A stretch of 64,000 nt of DNA from Octopus sinensis (taxonomy: Eukaryota), in assembly GCF_006345805.1 (NCBI RefSeq), contig NC_043007.1, positions 56,172,001 through 56,236,000 of the forward strand, in the 5' to 3' direction. This document shows, piece by piece, positions 6,995 through 42,805 of this stretch. Under the pieces are notes generated by a model, which was not told where the DNA came from, did not search any database, and saw only the letters and a list, made by a program, of their open reading frames with translations. The translations under genes were made by a program, and so were the position numbers. Each line of letters begins with the position of its first letter. Positions within the stretch are counted from its first letter, which is position 1.

Positions 6995-7205
6995 ATTTTG
7001 TGTGTGTCTGTGTTTGTCGCCCCCACCACCATCACTAGTCAACTGATGTTGGTGTGTTTACGATTCTGTAACTTAGCGGTTCTGCAAAAGAGCCCGATAA
7101 AATCAGTACTAGGCGTACAAAGAATAAGTACTGGGGTCGATTTGTTTGACTAAAGGCGGTGCTCCAGCATGGCCGCATCCAAATAACTGAAACAAGTAAA
7201 AGGAT
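6995..7205 (+). mobile_element. SINE family A, 3' half
   Basis: tttgtc..ccaccatc..gtaacttagcggttc..aagaataagtactggggtcgatttgtttgactaaaggcggtgctccagcatggcc..ctgaaacaagtaaaagg. Confidence 0.85.
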
Positions 7206-14516: not shown

Positions 14517-15315
14517 GGCGCAGGAGTGGCTGTGTGATAAGTAGCTTGCTTACCAACCACATGGTTCCGGATTCAGTCCCACTGCGTGGCACTTTGGGCA
14601 GATGTCTCCTACTATATCCACGGGCCGACCAATACCTTGTGAGTGGATTTGGTAGACGGAAACACACACACACACGCACACATATATATGTGTGCGTGTG
14701 TGTGTGTGTGTGCTTGTGTATATATTTGTGTCTGTGTTTGTCCCCCATCCAACATCGCTTGATAGCCGATGCTGGTGTGTTTACGTCCCCGTAGCTTAGT
14801 TGTTCGGCAAAAGATACCAAAAGATATAGGCGTAGGAGTGGCTGTGTGGTAAGTAGCTTGCTAACCAACCACACGGTTGCGGGTTCAGTCCCACTGCGTG
14901 GCATCTTGGGCAAGTGTCTTCTGCTATAGCCCCGGGCCGACCAATGCCTTGTGAGTGGATTTGGTAGACAGAAACTGAAAGAAGCCTGTCGTATATATGT
15001 ATATATATATGTATATGTGTGTGTGTGTTTGTGTGTCTGTATTTGTCCCCCTAGCATTGCTTGACAACCGATGCTGGTGTGTTTACGTCCCCGTCACTTA
15101 GCGGTTCGGCAAAAAGAGACCGATAGAATAAGTACTAAAAGGTGGTGCTCCAGCATGGCCGCAGTCAAATGACTGAAACAAGTAAAAGAGTAAAGAGTAA
15201 AAGAGTAATAGAATAAGTACTAGGCTTACAAAGAATAAGTCCTTGGGTCGATTTGCTCGACTAAACATGGTGCTCCAACATGGCCGCAGTCAAATGAGTG
15301 AAATAAGTAAAAGAG
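14517..15315 (+). mobile_element. Two tandem SINE family A copies (tRNA head, CORE-like block, internal microsatellite, LINE-derived tail), tail duplicated
   Basis: ggcgcaggagtggctgtgtg..gttcagtcccactgcgtggca (A/B boxes), ttgggcaagtgtcttctgctatagcc (CORE-like), tail ggtgctccagcatggccgcagtcaaatgactgaaacaagtaaaagag. Confidence 0.9.
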
Positions 15316-16344: not shown

Positions 16345-16630
16345 TGTATGTATGTATGTTATGTATGTATGTATGTATGTATGTATGTATGTATGTATGT
16401 ATGTATGCATGTATGTATGTATGTATGCATGCATGTGTTTGTGTGTCTGTATTTGCCCCCTACCATCGCTTGACAACCGTTGTTGGTGTGTTTATATCAC
16501 CGTAACCTAGCGGTTCGGTAAAAGAGACCGATAGAATAAGTGCTAGGCTTATAAAGAATAAGCCCTGCGGTGTTCCAGCATGGCTGCAGTCAAATGACTG
16601 AAACAAGTAAAAAATGAAAGAATAAAAGAA
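15843..16630 (+). mobile_element. SINE family A interrupted within its internal microsatellite by a fold-back insertion
   Basis: Head/CORE 15843-16000, 3' half 16435-16630, and an unrelated palindrome at 16141-16310 in between. Confidence 0.8.
16141..16310. repeat. Imperfect fold-back (about 75-bp arms)
   Basis: aagggattggcaaaacgcctcacca..tagacgccaaaggcgcta..ccttaaaa pairs with ttttaagg..tagcgcctttggcgtcta..tggtgaggcgatttgccaatccctt. Confidence 0.9.
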
Positions 16631-20057: not shown

Positions 20058-20300
20058 AACATCGCTTGACAACCAATGCTGGTGTGTTTACGTCCCCGTA
20101 ACTTAGCGGTTCGGCAAAAGAGACCGATAGAATAAGAACTAGGCTTACAAAGAATAAGTCCTGGGGTCGATGTAATCGACTAAAGGTGGTGCTAGAACAT
20201 GGCACAGTCAAACGCCTGAAACAAGTAAAAGAGTAAAAGAGTATTGTCGAAGTTTACCCAATTTATTGCAGATAAATTTTAACAACAAAATCTTGTTTTA
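19721..20300 (+). mobile_element. hAT-type MITE remnant with a SINE family A copy nested at about 19870-20241
   Basis: Starts cagtggttctcaacc, a typical hAT/Charlie terminus. The nested SINE has B box, CORE, (TA)n(TG)n and a (GTAAAAGA)2 tail. Confidence 0.55.
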
Positions 20301-33061: not shown

Positions 33062-33429
33062 CACAGATATGTACTTGCATAACAAGTGACTTGATCTGAG
33101 GTCATGTGCTGAAACAAACACATGCAGTACGAGGTTTTGTGTGTTCTTAAATAGCTTGTAATGTCTTCCACGCTGCAATTGTTGATATTCTTTTATCGTT
33201 TTTATTCTTTTACTTGTTTCAGTCATTTGAATGAGGCCATACTGGAGCACCGCCTTTAGTCGAACAAATTGACCCCACGACTCATTCTTTGTTAGTTTAG
33301 TACGTATTCTATCGGTCTCTTTTGCTAAACCGCTACGTTATGGAGGCGTAAAAACGCCAACATCGGTTGTGAAGCGATGTTGGGGTGGGGACAAACACAA
33401 ACACATACATACATACATACATACATACA

Positions 33430-33765: not shown

Positions 33766-33786
33766 TATATATATATATATATATAT

Positions 33787-34197
33787 GGAACCTGCTGGCA
33801 TGGAGAAACAGGGGAAGGATGCAGGTTCGCTCATCCCAGGCCCTATGGAAATTGCATCAAACCCACTCGACCAAAATGCCTTAACCAAAACCAGAACAAA
33901 TACAAGCTGCCCCAGAAATATGCAGACATAGTGCGTAATGCCCCAACAAGGAGAAGGCGCACATTTGCAGAGGAAATGCAGACGGCGGCAGCAGAACAAA
34001 GAAATTTTGTGGAAATGGCAGAGAAAATTGTGGGACAACTGGCCTGGATACATCGTCTTCAGAGCCAGGGGCACTCACAACAGCACTCAAGACCACCACA
34101 ATCAAGGGACCCAGGGTGGCCACCGCTGACGCCGGCCCAGGTGCCACACCGTCAGCCTTTATTGACACCCCGGCTGTCTCACCAGTGCTTCTGCTGA
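33787..34197 (+). CDS. LINE ORF1, C-terminal part (CCCH-type zinc finger remnant)
   Basis: Open frame GTCWHGETGEGCRFAHP...RNFVEMAEK...HQCFC*, with no stop from the truncation point to 34197. Confidence 0.7.
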   Translation, partial: GTCWHGETGEGCRFAHPRPYGNCIKPTRPKCLNQNQNKYKLPQKYADIVRNAPTRRRRTFAEEMQTAAAEQRNFVEMAEKIVGQLAWIHRLQSQGHSQQHSRPPQSRDPGWPPLTPAQVPHRQPLLTPRLSHQCFC

Positions 34198-37138
34198 ATG
34201 TCAGAGGTCTGGTGAAACCCACTAATATGGGTAAAATTCCTTACCTTAGGGACTTGAGCACAAGCAACCATGCAATATGCATAGCGCTGACTGAAACGCA
34301 CCTGTCAAGCAGTATAGCAGATGCAGAAATACACATACCGAAGTATACTGTTTTTCGGTCGGACAGGAAGGAAAGAACTCATGGTGGGGTTGCCCTGTAC
34401 GTCCGTGAAGATGTCACACCCATAGTACTGTTGACACACTCAAACTCAGTCTGTGACACACTGATAGTACACATGAAACAACCGAAAATAGTAATATGTG
34501 TCACATATCGGCCACCAGACACCCCTAGTCATGAAGGAGTGTTTGAAGATAGCCTCAGAAGAATAGAAGAAGTCCTGGACAAACTGGACCAGGGTAACAC
34601 CATTCTACTGCTGGGAGATTTTAACCTTCCGAAAGTCAAATGGCCAGATGGCCATCTCCTCCCTGGAATGACATCACTTGAACAGAGACAGACAGAGTCC
34701 TTGTTGGCTCTCACACGCAAGTTTTTCATGGAGCAAGCAGTGCTTTGGCCAACAAGAGGTGAGAATGTCTTGGACCTCTGTTTCACAAGCAACCCGATGC
34801 TCATCCACAACATAATGGTAACACCAACAATTCTCTCAGACCACAACTTAGTAGAGGTAATGATATGTGGTATGAGAGAGTTAGTTGAGACGCAGCCATT
34901 AGAAAATACCACAGGCCTATCCAGTCTAAACTTCCATAAGGCAAACTGGAAGAAGATCAACGAAGAGATCCGAAAACATGACTGGAGTGACTTCATCACC
35001 ACACAAGACACCAACACACATTTCCAACATTTCATGACAACAATACAGAACATATGCCATAAGTTTGTCCCGGAGAAAAAAGCCAGCGGGCATAGGAACG
35101 TTATTCCCAGAGACAGGAAAATACTTATGAGGCGAAGAGCTAAGCTCTCGAAGCAACTGAATGCACGGCAGAGAAACAATGAGGGACTCCACCTGAAACT
35201 TTTTGAAACGGAAACTGCACTCAAACTTTCCTATGAGAAGGAGAGGGCAGAGAGAGAAGCCAGGGCCATAGAGAATATTAAAACAAACCCTAAAGCCTTC
35301 TTTAAATTTGCGAAAGAAACCACCTCGGTACACTGCAAGATTGGCCCACTCTTTGATAAAAAGGGCTCTCTAACTGAGGACCCCCAAGGGATAAGTGAAA
35401 TACTAAAGGAACAGTATAAAAGTGTGTTCACATCCCCTCTGGGGCACATGCAAATCACAAACCCAGAAGTTTTCTTTGATGCCACAACACTCCAAAACCA
35501 AACAACAACCATCGACCACATAGACATAACAGAGAGGGATGTAATATCTGCCATAGAAGAAATGAGAATAAACTCAGCTGCTGGACCAGATGGATTCCCA
35601 GCAGTCCTCCTAAAAACATGCAGGCATGCCCTAGCGGGACCACTGAAGAAGCTCTTCAGTGGTTCCTTGGCTAACGGTAAACTGCCCAGGGCGCTAAAAG
35701 AAGGCACCATATGCCCTATCCACAAAGGAGGGAGTAGAGCAGAGGCCAAAAACTACAGGCCAGTCTCCCTGACGTCACACATAAGTAAGGTCATGGAACG
35801 AATCATCAGAAAAAAACTGATCACGTTCCTCGAAGAAACTAACCGTCTCACTGACACACAGCATGGCTTTCGCCCAGGAAGAAGCTGCCTTACGCAGCTG
35901 TTACAACACTACGACTGGGTACTGAAACAACTACTGGATCGCTCACAGGTAGATGTGGTATATCTCGACTTTGCGAAGGCCTTTGACAAAGTCGACCACG
36001 GAGTGATATGTCACAAATTACTCAGACTCGGCATAACAGGAAAAGTAGGTGAGTGGATACATGACTTCCTGAAGGACAGAAGCCAGATGGTTGCAGCCAA
36101 TGGAGCCCTCTCGGAAAGACACCAATAGCAAGCGGGGTGCCACAGGGCACAGTCTTGGGACCCTTGCTGTTTTTGGTGGCGCTCTCTGACATGCCCTTGG
36201 TAGCACAAACAACATCCCTCACTAGCTATGCTGATGACACAAAGGTAGCACAGGCAATCAAAAACCCAGCTGATGCTGACCTTTTACAACAAGATCTGGA
36301 TGCCATATACAAATGGGCTGAAGACAACAACATGCAATTTAATGCTGGTAAATTTCAAGCCTTACAATATCAAGCTGTAAACACATATACATTACAACAC
36401 AACTATACTGGTCCAGGAGGGATCGAAATCCCAGTATCGAAATCAATACGGGACCTGGGGATAGACATGAGTGACGATGCATCTTTTTCTTCACACATCG
36501 CGAAGGTGGCGACAATGTGCAGACGACTCACTGGCTGGATCCTGAGGACATTCCGGACAAGAGACTGCGAGACCATGTTGACACTATGGAGGACATTTGT
36601 CCTAAGCCGCCTGGACTACTGCTCCCAACTGTGGTCACCGCATAGTGTCAAACTAACCACAGAGCTTGAGACAATCCAAAGACATTTCACCAAGAGGATT
36701 TCCACCATGAAAGAAAAGAACTATTGGGAGAGGCTTAGGGAACTCAATTTGTACTCCTTGGAACGAAGACGAGAGAGATATGCAGTGATATACATATGGA
36801 AAATCCTGGAGGGACTAGCACCAAATTTTGGAATTGAGAGCTGTTCCAATCCCCGTACAGGACGTCACTGTGTGGTGCCAAAGGTCCCGTCTTCCACATC
36901 CAGGGTAAGGAGCAGATACTGTAATAGCCTGGGGTTCAGGGGCCCTCAGCTGTTCAACAAACTGCCAAGAAAACTAAGAGATCTACATGATGCGGATGTG
37001 GACATTTTCAAAAAACATCTAGACAAGCTGCTTTCCGGGATCCCAGATGAACCCACTGCAAGGTACGAAGGTAACCTAAGGGCAGCAGCTACAAACTATC
37101 TCTTAGATCAGTGGCCAGCCACGGCAAACTGGACTTAG
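33939..37138 (+). pseudogene. LINE ORF2 (APE endonuclease + reverse transcriptase), one frameshift at about 36125
   Basis: EN: LLNVRGL, LTETHL, GGVALYV, YRPP, GDFNLP, LDLCF, SDHNLV. RT: AGPDG, NYRPVSLTS, QHGFRPGRSC, YLDFAKAFDKVDH, then after the shift SGVPQGTVLGPLLF, YADD, RRRERYAVIY. Confidence 0.92.
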
Positions 37139-37653
37139 AGAGGGTAGCAACAAGGGCGGTGCCCCAGCATGGCCTCAGCCGGATGGCTGAAACAAGTAAA
37201 AGAGTAAAAGAGATATATATGTGTGTGTGTGGTGTGTGTACATATATATATGCATATACACATGCATGCATATATAAATATACATATATATGTGTTTGAG
37301 TCCACGTATGTATGTGTTTATGCATGTCTGTCTGTATGTATGCAATTTAACGTCCACTTCTTTCCCCGTCGCATGCGTTAGATGGAATTTGTTGAGGCAG
37401 ATTTTTTACAGCCCGGTAACTTTCCTGTCGCCAATCATTACTTGCTTCTAAATAAAGTAGTTTTTCGTGATGACACACTGATGTCAAGAAAGCAGACACA
37501 AACATACACACAACACACATATTCACACAGATGCACACACACTTTCTGATTCCGTCTTGCAAATTCTGCCATAAGAATTTGGTTGCTCCGGGGTTTGAAT
37601 TAAAATTACTTGCCCAAAATGCCATACAATCAGGTTGAACCCGAAGCAAAGTA

Positions 37654-42584: not shown

Positions 42585-42805
42585 TCTTTGTGTCTGTGTT
42601 TGTCTCCCACCCACCACCGCTTGACAACTGTGTTGCTGTGTTTGCGCCCCAGTAAATTAACGGTTCGGTTTAAGAGAACGATAGAATAAGTATTAGGCTT
42701 TAAAAAAGTCAGTCCTGGCGTCGATTTGTTCGTCTAAAATCCTTGAAGGTGATGCCCCAGCAAGGCCACAATCAAATGACTGAAACAAGTGAAAGACAAA
42801 AAGAT
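42345..42805 (+). mobile_element. SINE family A
   Basis: Head, CORE-like ccttgggcaagtg, internal (TG)n(GA)n, tail ggtgatgccccagc..aaatgactgaaacaagt. Confidence 0.85.

What the first reader, a model, noticed from the sequence alone, without database searches (positions are those of the whole stretch)
37152..37212. The LINE 3' tail matches the tail of the dominant SINE, with a compensatory base-pair change
Seen: the LINE ends aagggcggtgccccagcatggcct-CAGCC-ggat-GGCTG-aaacaa(gtaaaaga)2. SINE-A copies (e.g. 15138-15207, and more degenerately 16570-16610, 7152-7205 and 20181-20241) end aaggyggtgctccagcatggccg-CAGTC-aaat-GACTG-aaacaa(gtaaaaga)n. The C-G pair of the stem has become T-A with pairing preserved. 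Known: CR1/L2-group RTs recognise a 3' stem-loop plus terminal repeat, and SINEs acquire that tail to be mobilised. Inference: this LINE or a close relative is the autonomous partner of this SINE family, and a near-intact copy sits beside its parasites.
Basis: partly seen in the sequence, partly recalled or inferred. Interest (0 to 1): 0.72.

Follow-up and report, generated by a model that had tools for sequence, protein, structure and literature searches.

The report
Octopus LINE and SINE share tail
A young jumping gene (LINE) in an octopus-like genome ends in the same two-hairpin tail and 8-base repeat as the genome's commonest short repeat (SINE), which likely borrows this LINE lineage's enzyme to copy itself; this is a textbook kind of partnership, here in a new animal.

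Summary
The LINE at 33787-37212 ends in a roughly 60-base tail that the dominant SINE also carries. It matches 53 of 58 bases in an older SINE subfamily and 51 of 58 in the young one.

The tail belongs to the LINE: 30 of 30 other genomic copies end the same way. It folds into two adjacent hairpins, followed by AAACAA and (GTAAAAGA)n.

The C-G to T-A change in the second hairpin is real and fixed in each family. Sister LINE families (62-66% protein identity) share the first hairpin unchanged. Their second hairpin varies but keeps its pairing.

The partnership is likely but not shown. This is the only LINE family found with the SINE's linker and repeat. Both are young, and both land in (TA)n repeats.

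Three results count against it. No LINE with the SINE's own stem was found. The hairpin loop also differs (GGAT against AAAT). The only upstream ATG is out of frame in 16 of 17 copies.

The LINE's clade (CR1, L2 or RTE) could not be tested. Shared tails with compensatory hairpin changes are already described for other LINE-SINE pairs. This is a new member of a known kind.

By-sequence look-ups of the scan's earlier notes found nothing like this stretch. Notes on other LINE-SINE tail pairs in this genome do exist.

The parts
33787..37212 (+). Full-length copy of a young LINE family (about 3.43 kb), flanked by TA-rich microsatellite on both sides
   Evidence: 18 of the 19 other 5'-end copies start to match the window at 33785, within TA-repeat flank (one starts at 33806). 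30 of 30 other 3' ends stop at the same tail. The 3' probe gave 2,584 first-look candidates and the 5' probe 119, which fits 5' truncation.
33939..36128 (+). First reading frame of the single long ORF: endonuclease (about 34245-34844) and the N-terminal half of the reverse transcriptase (about 35718-36086)
   Evidence: Pfam: Exo_endo_phos_2 E=7.5e-13, Exo_endo_phos E=6.4e-10, RVT_1 profile positions 1-107 E=8.1e-15.
36112..36114 (+). Frameshift site of this copy: a G run one base shorter than in most copies
   Evidence: 23 of 25 other copies covering the site carry one more base here. In a direct anchor count, 20 of 23 copies have the longer form.
36065..37138 (+). Second reading frame of the same ORF: the C-terminal half of the reverse transcriptase (about 36101-36367) and the C-terminal region, with the stop codon at 37136-37138
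   Evidence: RVT_1 profile positions 108-193, E=3.7e-10. Sister LINE families align to residues 18-355 at 62-66% identity.
37154..37175 (+). Tail hairpin 1: GGGC-G-GUGC / CCCA loop / GCAU-G-GCCU. Its sequence is almost invariant across all tail families.
   Evidence: ViennaRNA folds, RNAalifold consensus and pair counts. The outermost pair covaries among LINE families: U-A, C-G and G.U.
37176..37189 (+).
   Evidence: Pair 4 is C-G here and U-A in the SINE. Pair 5 is C-G or U-A among LINE families.
37190..37212 (+). Linker AAACAA followed by the terminal repeat (GTAAAAGA)2 plus G
   Evidence: genomic copies carry 2-3 units. The SINE has the same linker and repeat.
14829..15207 (+). Young SINE-A copy with a tRNA-like head, an internal microsatellite and the LINE-like tail (hairpin 1 at 15140-15161, hairpin 2 at 15162-15175, linker and repeats at 15176-15207)
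   Evidence: The 3' 168 bases have at least 40 genomic copies at 98-100% identity. Full-length young copies measure 331-347 bases.
7158..7205 (+). Degenerate SINE-A tail (CATCC-AAAT-AACTG)
16569..16625 (+). SINE-A tail (CAGTC-AAAT-GACTG) with decayed repeats
20181..20243 (+). Degenerate SINE-A tail
33213..33251 (-). Older SINE-A tail just upstream of the LINE, in the opposite orientation
42757..42789 (+). Older SINE tail (CAATC-AAAT-GACTG)

Best explanation
The roughly 60-base tail at 37152-37212 is the LINE's own 3' end, and the dominant SINE, which carries the same tail, is likely copied in trans by the reverse transcriptase of this LINE lineage.

**Shown**
- The tail is intrinsic to a young, high-copy, single-ORF endonuclease and reverse-transcriptase LINE.
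- It consists of two adjacent hairpins, a linker and an 8-base repeat.
- The SINE shares all of these.
- All sequence differences from the older SINE subfamily fall in hairpin 2 or at the junction before it.
- The stem differences keep the pairing.

**Inferred, by analogy with stringent-type LINEs**
- The LINE protein would bind the hairpins on the RNA.
- It would nick AT-rich (TA)n DNA.
- It would prime reverse transcription on the terminal repeat.
- A SINE RNA carrying the same tail would be accepted as a template.

**Not decided**
- Whether the present family or an earlier member of its lineage does the work.
For: 1. **The tail is intrinsic to the LINE.** 30 of 30 other copies, at least 97.9% identical over up to 2 kb, end with the same tail at unrelated loci.
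2. **The tails are homologous.** 53 of 58 bases are identical to an older SINE-A copy and 51 of 58 to the young copy. The AAACAA linker and the GTAAAAGA repeat are identical.
3. **The structure is supported.** Single-sequence folds and RNAalifold both give two hairpins. On 20 family representatives, 95% of cells pair, against 20.8-44.6% when the 3' partners are slid by 1-3 columns. Three pairs change on both sides.
4. **The tail is a module of a LINE lineage.** Sister families with CAGCT-loop-AGCTG (8,610 exact tails) or CAGCC-TTCG-GGCTG have ORFs 62-66% identical to this one, ending just before the tail. Each has its own linker and repeat. Only this family shares the SINE's.
5. **Abundant variants are paired.** With stem position 4 fixed as C and the rest free, 96 of 100 listed tails are Watson-Crick paired (8,666 in all). 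With position 4 as A or G there are only 187 tails, and 95 of the 100 listed are unpaired at that pair.
6. **Both families are young.** LINE copies are 97.9-99.9% identical to the window copy. SINE copies are 98-99% identical.
7. **Both share a target preference.** (TA)4 lies within 25 bases 3' of the tail in 20 of 30 LINE copies and 10 of 26 SINE copies. The background is 6.1% of 20,000 random positions.
8. **There is precedent.** Hairpin plus microsatellite is held to be the recognition site of CR1 (PMC8665684, passages). The cognate ORF2 protein recognises the stem generally and the loop specifically in zebrafish L2 (PMC4176376, abstract). Compensatory changes occur in LINE and SINE tail hairpins of plant L1 and RTE pairs (PMC3747384 and PMC6007223, passages).
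Against: 1. **No LINE with the SINE's own hairpin 2 was found.**
   - LINE 3'UTR context followed by CAGTC gave 1 genomic match.
   - 28 of 30 sampled GGTGCCCC...CAGTC....GACTG loci lie behind recognisable SINE body. One is a tail-only copy, one has an unclear upstream stretch, and none shows LINE coding context.
   - 0 of 85 SINE-type tails in 659 kb of held DNA have LINE ORF sequence upstream.
2. **The loop differs** at 2 of 4 bases, GGAT against AAAT. If the loop sets specificity, as reported for ZfL2, this LINE may not accept the SINE.
3. **No transitional forms were seen.** The single-change intermediates (T.G 1,546; C.A 1,306) carry loops other than the LINE's, mostly AAAT or TAAT. None of the 100 listed in either call has the LINE's GGAT loop. 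Their near-equal numbers look like neutral decay of dead SINE copies.
4. **The copy numbers are lopsided.** There are about 460 LINE tails (61% of 758) against 98,844 SINE tails. Old SINE subfamilies already carry T-A.
5. **Autonomy is doubtful.** The only ATG upstream of the endonuclease is one base out of frame with the long ORF in 16 of 17 copies.
6. **The single comparison is weak on its own.** Random substitutions give a compensated double change with all stems still paired in about 1.5-1.7% of trials. The fold z-scores are modest, -1.56 for the LINE and -2.45 for the SINE.
7. **The family alignment is partly circular.** For most rows, the search patterns themselves demanded hairpin 2 pairing.
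Confidence: 0.68

Rival explanations
1. The SINE took its tail from an older LINE family of the same lineage, now extinct or unsampled, and that family or another living one drives it. On this reading the LINE in the window is only the closest surviving relative of the donor and does not itself mobilise the SINE.
For: - Old SINE subfamilies with TAAT or CAAT loops already carry the T-A pair.
- Every LINE family sampled has C-G at that pair.
- The LINE family is very young and small, about 460 tails against 98,844.
- The loop differs.
- No intermediates carry the GGAT loop.
Against: - No other LINE with the AAACAAG linker and the GTAAAAGA repeat was seen in any sample.
- Young SINE copies at 98-99% identity imply a driver that is active now.
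- This LINE is the only young family found with a matching terminal repeat.
Confidence: 0.22
2. The compensatory change carries no functional meaning. The two tails share ancestry, and the paired C-to-T and G-to-A transitions arose by chance. On this reading the hairpin is not what the enzyme recognises.
For: - The single LINE-SINE comparison has a chance probability of about 0.015-0.017.
- The fold z-scores are modest.
- The single-change intermediates occur in near-equal numbers, as neutral decay predicts.
Against: - Independent double changes at pair 5 (C-G or T-A) and at the outer pair of hairpin 1 (U-A, C-G, G.U) occur among LINE families only 62-66% identical in protein.
- All abundant variants are paired. 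Transversion variants are rare and unpaired.
- Sliding the 3' partners drops pairing from 95% to 20.8-44.6%.
Confidence: 0.07
3. The LINE family is itself non-autonomous. It lacks an in-frame start codon, and a related intact LINE mobilises both it and the SINE in trans.
For: - The only upstream ATG is out of frame in 16 of 17 copies.
- Many copies carry frame breaks.
Against: - 7 of 30 sampled 3' copies are open over all 645 codons held.
- The window and one other copy are open over 620 codons from the 5' side.
- Relatives at 60-62% identity are complete ORFs of 1,033-1,041 residues beginning with Met.
- Non-AUG initiation or a frameshift at the C run was not tested.
Confidence: 0.15

Closest known systems
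Stringent-type LINE/SINE pairs with a common 3' tail: eel UnaL2/UnaSINE1 and zebrafish ZfL2 (Okada laboratory; PMC4176376 abstract, PMC3747384 passages)
   Same: - The SINE's 3' end is homologous to the LINE's 3' end.
- A stem-loop is followed by short tandem repeats.
- The LINE is a single-ORF endonuclease and reverse-transcriptase element of about 3.4 kb. The comparable size of UnaL2 is recalled, not checked.
- Both the LINE and the SINE carry the same terminal repeat.
   Different: - The tail here has two adjacent hairpins. The first is invariant across at least five sister LINE families. The second varies by family.
- The repeat unit is 8 bases.
- The SINE's second hairpin matches no LINE found.
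- Nothing has been tested at the bench.
CR1 LINEs of amniotes: 3' hairpin plus octamer microsatellite (PMC8665684, passages citing Suh 2015)
   Same: A hairpin lies immediately upstream of an 8-base microsatellite at the very 3' end. The endonuclease and reverse transcriptase lie in one ORF. Copies are heavily 5'-truncated.
   Different: - No ORF1 was found.
- The element is about 1 kb shorter than the typical CR1 size that I recall.
- The repeat motif is different.
- Phylogenetic placement was not tested.
- The insertions favour (TA)n microsatellites.
RTE-clade LINEs with Au-like and other SINEs (PMC6007223, passages)
   Same: - A single ORF and a very short 3'UTR ending in microsatellite-like repeats.
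- SINEs share the 3' end.
- Compensatory changes between the SINE and LINE hairpins are described there.
- A link between the 3' repeat and the target site is proposed there.
   Different: - The endonuclease here also matches Pfam Exo_endo_phos_2. I recall that profile from Jockey/CR1-type proteins, which is recall and not a test.
- The octopus RTE-2_OV described in PMC9115989 (passages) has a 1,109-residue ORF, UTRs of about 600 bases and a microsatellite starting at the ORF end. That does not match this element.
Mollusc CORE and other conserved-domain SINEs with L2, CR1, CR1-Zenon or Nimb tails (PMC4758252 and PMC11481361, passages); octopus OR2 SINE (Ohshima and Okada 1994, seen only as a citation)
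   Same: These are tRNA-headed mollusc SINEs with 35-61 bases of LINE-derived tail at 72-95% identity. The values here, 58 bases at 88-91%, fall in that range.
   Different: - No LINE partner for an octopus SINE is named in any of the passages, abstracts or listings I saw.
- Whether SINE-A is OR2 or carries a CORE domain was not tested.

Membership tests
Stringent-type LINE/SINE partnership (shared 3' tail) | The SINE's 3' end is homologous to the 3' end of a LINE in the same genome | tested here: met
   53 of 58 bases (older SINE-A) and 51 of 58 (young SINE-A) are identical, including the linker and repeat.
Stringent-type LINE/SINE partnership (shared 3' tail) | The tail is the LINE's own end in all copies | tested here: met
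   30 of 30 other genomic copies end the same way.
Stringent-type LINE/SINE partnership (shared 3' tail) | A conserved stem-loop supported by compensatory changes | tested here: met
   Caveat: most rows of the family alignment were gathered with patterns that demanded pairing.
Stringent-type LINE/SINE partnership (shared 3' tail) | The LINE protein mobilises the SINE in trans through the tail | not testable with these tools
   This needs a retrotransposition assay.
Stringent-type LINE/SINE partnership (shared 3' tail) | An identical recognition hairpin in the LINE and the SINE | tested here: not met
   Hairpin 2 differs at one base pair and at 2 of 4 loop bases. No LINE with the SINE version was found.
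CR1 clade | A 3' hairpin followed by an octamer microsatellite | tested here: met
   The definition comes from PMC8665684 (passages).
CR1 clade | The reverse transcriptase groups with CR1 in a phylogeny | not testable with these tools
   No named clade references were available. The homologue and atlas searches returned no clade names.
CR1 clade | An ORF1 upstream of ORF2 (recalled as typical) | tested here: not met
   The element is 3.43 kb. Upstream of the endonuclease there is only a 135-codon open frame without a known domain, and it was not examined further.
L2 clade (UnaL2/ZfL2 type) | A stem-loop plus short tandem repeats at the 3' end, with a single ORF possible | tested here: met
   Placement in the clade by phylogeny could not be tested.
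RTE clade | A single ORF of about 1,000 residues, an element of about 3.3 kb, and a very short 3'UTR with microsatellite-like repeats | tested here: met
   The 3'UTR is 13 bases, then the tail. Phylogenetic placement could not be tested, so membership stays open.
CORE-SINE / octopus OR2 | A tRNA-derived head and a CORE domain | tested here: inconclusive
   A-box-like and B-box-like motifs are visible by eye. ARAGORN and Rfam report nothing. No CORE reference sequence was available.

The most novel reading that the evidence does not exclude
Octopus genomes hold a LINE lineage whose 3' end is a two-part address. The first hairpin is invariant and is read by all members. The second hairpin and the microsatellite are hypervariable and set family identity.

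The genome's dominant SINE, with about 100,000 intact tails, keeps the invariant part but has evolved a private second hairpin that no LINE carries. That would mean the enzyme reads the second hairpin only as a shape.

The sharp class of tail-only retrocopies, a third or more of insertions, would mark a programmed stop or template switch at the base of hairpin 1. That would be the step by which SINEs capture LINE tails.
Probability: 0.3. Interest if true: 0.55.

Novelty: new member of a known kind. Interest (0 to 1): 0.4.

Why it matters
SINEs make up about 40% of the transposable-element content of octopus genomes (PMC8967140, passage). Their expansion has been linked to octopus genome evolution. 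No LINE partner was named in any of the cephalopod abstracts and passages that my searches brought up.

A concrete candidate driver, with a defined two-hairpin tail and natural variants, gives a directly testable system. It could show how stringent LINE enzymes choose their templates. It could also date SINE bursts against LINE activity.

The principle itself is textbook knowledge.

Tried and rejected
- **Rfam and ARAGORN on the window:** no matches.
- **Clade assignment:**
  - The homologue search gave 228 relatives, nearly all unnamed.
  - The ESM Atlas gave only "hypothetical protein, RVT_1".
  - Neither can place the LINE in CR1, L2 or RTE.
- **Hairpin-1 motif scan of metagenome contigs:**
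  - It returned 5 stretches, all apparently chance matches in GC-rich contigs.
  - None has hairpin 2 or the AAAC linker.
  - It gave no cross-species evidence.
- **Sequencing runs:**
  - 20 runs hold the LINE's 3' region, 16 of them under two organism labels.
  - Only contigs could be laid, so nothing can be said about expression, strand or ends.
- **A family-wide frameshift in the reverse transcriptase:** my first indel screen suggested one. I rejected it because the break is nearly private to the window copy.
- **A 2-base deletion at 33882:** one search flagged one. Among the seven copies I printed, only one differed there, by a block insertion. I take the signal to be an artefact of that subfamily.
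- **Wobble excess as a sign of selection:** T.G at 1,546 against C.A at 1,306 is too close to be evidence either way.
- **Earlier notes of this scan:** by-sequence and nearby look-ups found nothing for this LINE or SINE. Notes on other LINE-SINE tails in the genome concern a Tx1-type LINE and were not tested here.
- **Papers not held:** Ohshima and Okada 1994, Gilbert and Labuda 1999, and the id I tried for the octopus genome paper. Repbase and Dfam could not be consulted and may already list this pair.

Full report
**The observation**

So does the SINE tail at 15138-15207.

A 33-base degenerate tail pattern occurs 8 times in the window. It occurred 0 times in each of 100 shuffles.

The window is G000:C11:56172001-56236000, in a 2.72-Gb genome of 13,516 contigs. 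One related protein bears the source name Octopus sinensis, and the repeats look octopod.

**Is the tail the LINE's own?**

Yes. A 513-base probe ending at the tail found 40 scored matches at 99-100% identity, from 2,584 first-look candidates. In all 30 other loci fetched, the LINE ends with the same tail, followed by 2-3 GTAAAAGA units and unrelated flanks.

**The LINE**

- 18 of the 19 other 5'-end copies begin to match the window at 33785, inside TA-repeat flank. One begins at 33806. The element is about 3.43 kb, at 33787-37212.
- The 5' probe had 119 first-look candidates against 2,584 for the 3' probe. That is the usual sign of 5' truncation.
- One long reading frame carries an endonuclease and a reverse transcriptase.
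- The stop codon is at 37136-37138, so the 3'UTR is 13 bases plus the tail.
- In this copy the frame breaks in a G run at 36112-36114. The run is one base shorter than in 23 of 25 other copies.
- Four substitutions are private to this copy: 34174, 34841, 34867 and 37098. The last is confirmed by contigs of four public runs.
- So "near-intact" is fair.
- The only ATG upstream of the endonuclease, at 33938, is one base out of frame with the long ORF in 16 of 17 copies. Relatives at 60-62% identity start with Met at the corresponding place.
- 7 of 30 sampled 3' copies are open over all 645 codons held.
- No second ORF with a known domain was seen.

**The tail structure**

Folding gives two adjacent hairpins in the LINE, in the SINE and in sister LINE families.
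- Hairpin 1 is at 37154-37175.

RNAalifold on 20 family representatives predicts both hairpins. The fold energies are only modestly better than shuffles: z = -1.56 for the LINE and -2.45 for the SINE.

**A whole LINE lineage shares the tail**

An unconstrained scan of held loci turned up tails with CAGCT-loop-AGCTG. Genome-wide there are 8,610 exact tails of that kind, 758 with CAGCC....GGCTG and 98,844 with CAGTC....GACTG. The reversed-pattern controls were 0 in every case.

The contexts show several LINE families. Each has its own hairpin-2 loop:
- CGTG, CATG, CATA, CATT, CAAG or TGTG;
- TTCG;
- TTAG;
- TCAA.

Each also has its own terminal repeat, among them (ATAAA)n, (AATC)n, (AAAATC)n, (AAACA)n and ATTTTTAAGG.

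Their ORFs end just before the tail and are 62-66% identical to this LINE's C-terminal 330 residues. Hairpin 1 is nearly invariant in all of them.

**Covariation**

On the 20 representatives, 95% of cells pair. When the 3' partners are slid by 1-3 columns, pairing drops to 20.8-44.6%. Three pairs change on both sides:

| Pair | States seen (of 20 rows) |
|---|---|
| Outermost pair of hairpin 1 | U-A 10, C-G 2, G.U 1, U.G 1, unpaired 6 |
| Pair 4 of hairpin 2 | C-G 16, U-A 4 |
| Pair 5 of hairpin 2 | C-G 11, U-A 9 |

Caveat: most rows were collected with patterns that required hairpin 2 to pair. Three less biased views agree.
- With position 4 fixed as C and everything else in the stem free, 96 of 100 listed tails are Watson-Crick paired, 1 has a wobble and 3 are mismatched (8,666 in all).
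- With position 4 as A or G there are only 187 tails. Of the 100 listed, 95 are unpaired at pair 4 (my count of the rows).
- The outer pair of hairpin 1 and the base before hairpin 2 were never constrained by any pattern.

For the single LINE-SINE comparison taken alone, random substitutions give a compensated double change with all stems still paired in about 1.5-1.7% of trials.

**How close are the LINE and SINE tails?**

Against an older SINE-A copy, 53 of 58 bases are identical. All five differences lie in hairpin 2 (one base pair, two loop bases) or at the base before it. Hairpin 1, the linker and the repeat are identical.

The young SINE-A copy adds two C-to-T changes. One turns a C-G pair of hairpin 1 into U.G. 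The other lies in the loop of hairpin 1.

Among the LINE families seen, only this one shares the SINE's AAACAAG linker and GTAAAAGA repeat.

**Searches for a LINE with the SINE's stem**

- LINE 3'UTR context followed by CAGTC gave 1 genomic match, in a sister-family context.
- GGTGCCCC...CAGTC....GACTG gave 3,622 matches. Of the 30 sampled loci, 28 lie behind recognisable SINE body. One is a tail-only copy and one has an unclear upstream stretch. None shows LINE coding context.
- 0 of 85 SINE-type tails in 659 kb of held DNA have LINE ORF similarity in the 450 bases upstream.
- Single-change intermediates number 1,546 (T.G) and 1,306 (C.A). They carry loops other than the LINE's, mostly AAAT or TAAT. 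None of the 100 listed in either call has GGAT.

These intermediates look like neutral decay of dead SINE copies, not steps between the two hairpins. The T-A pair is old in the SINE and has no LINE counterpart in my samples.

**Other support for shared machinery**

Both families are young. Both are enriched next to (TA)n. (TA)4 lies within 25 bases 3' of the tail in 20 of 30 LINE copies and 10 of 26 SINE copies, against 6.1% of 20,000 random positions in the same loci. Sister LINE families also land in TA repeats, so this argues for the lineage and not for this one family.

**Comparison with what is known**

- Shared LINE and SINE tails, stem-loops and terminal repeats define stringent-type LINEs (PMC3747384, passages).
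- For zebrafish L2 elements, the cognate ORF2 protein was reported to read the stem generally and the loop specifically (PMC4176376, abstract).
- CR1 elements carry a hairpin plus an octamer microsatellite that is held to be the recognition site (PMC8665684, passages).
- Compensatory changes between SINE and LINE hairpins are described for plant L1 pairs and RTE pairs (PMC3747384 and PMC6007223, passages).
- Mollusc SINE tails match L2, CR1, CR1-Zenon and Nimb LINEs over 35-61 bases at 72-95% identity (PMC4758252 and PMC11481361, passages).
- Octopus SINEs are reported as mostly the tRNA-Core and tRNA-Deu classes, about 40% of transposable-element content (PMC8967140, passages).
- Octopus OR2 is listed as a CORE SINE (PMC4758252, passage).
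- My searches and the passages I read named no LINE partner for an octopus SINE. Repbase and Dfam could not be consulted.
- The octopus RTE-2_OV of PMC9115989 (passages) does not match this element in ORF length or UTRs.

**Verdict**

This is an ordinary kind of LINE-SINE tail sharing in a new host. The structural evidence is good, and the LINE lineage is a likely driver (about 0.68). Four things remain open:
- which family does the work;
- whether the differing loop matters;
- whether this LINE family can start translation;
- which clade it belongs to.

Noticed in passing
L081-L140 (genomic loci); example L122, L139, L140 for this LINE family: Many insertions consist of nothing but the roughly 50-base two-hairpin tail plus the repeat. 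This holds for 6 of 20 sampled tails of this LINE family and 13 of 30 of the CAGCT-type families. Their 5' ends cluster within a few bases of the start of hairpin 1, which is also where LINE-SINE homology begins. This could mark a fixed stop or template switch of the reverse transcriptase.
   Followed up: partly
window 33770-33786 and 37213-37260; L001-L060: The LINE, the SINE and the sister LINE families sit preferentially in (TA)n or other AT-rich microsatellites, often with the repeat on both sides. (TA)4 lies next to 20 of 30 LINE tails and 10 of 26 SINE tails, against a 6.1% background.
   Followed up: partly
window 33936-33945: The only ATG upstream of the endonuclease overlaps a TAA stop and is followed by a run of four C. 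It lies one base out of frame with the long ORF in 16 of 17 copies. Relatives start with Met at the matching place. Non-AUG initiation, slippage on the C run or a non-autonomous family are all possible.
   Followed up: partly
window 33787-34197: A frame open from the element's first base for about 135 codons begins with a Cys/His-rich stretch. It overlaps the start of the endonuclease frame. No domain search was run on it.
   Followed up: no
window 14640-14828 and 15208-15310: The young SINE-A copy at 14829-15207 appears to be inserted inside the 3' part of an older SINE-A copy. The older body continues on both sides. Earlier notes of this scan describe SINE-in-SINE nesting elsewhere in this genome.
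   Followed up: no
window 14985-15045: SINE-A carries an internal TA/TG microsatellite between its 5' and 3' halves. Young full-length copies still measure a tight 331-347 bases.
   Followed up: no
L103 versus L118, L124, L134: Within one sister LINE family (TTCG loop, ATTTTTAAGG repeat), hairpin 2 occurs as both CAGCC/GGCTG and CAGCT/AGCTG. That is a second compensatory switch inside a single family. The CAGCT form was seen in one fetched copy only.
   Followed up: partly
window 37098: The window copy has A where 29 of 29 other genomic copies differ. Contigs from four public runs, under two organism labels, read C at this place. The LINE's 3' region is held at a word share of 0.92 by runs under both labels.
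   Followed up: partly
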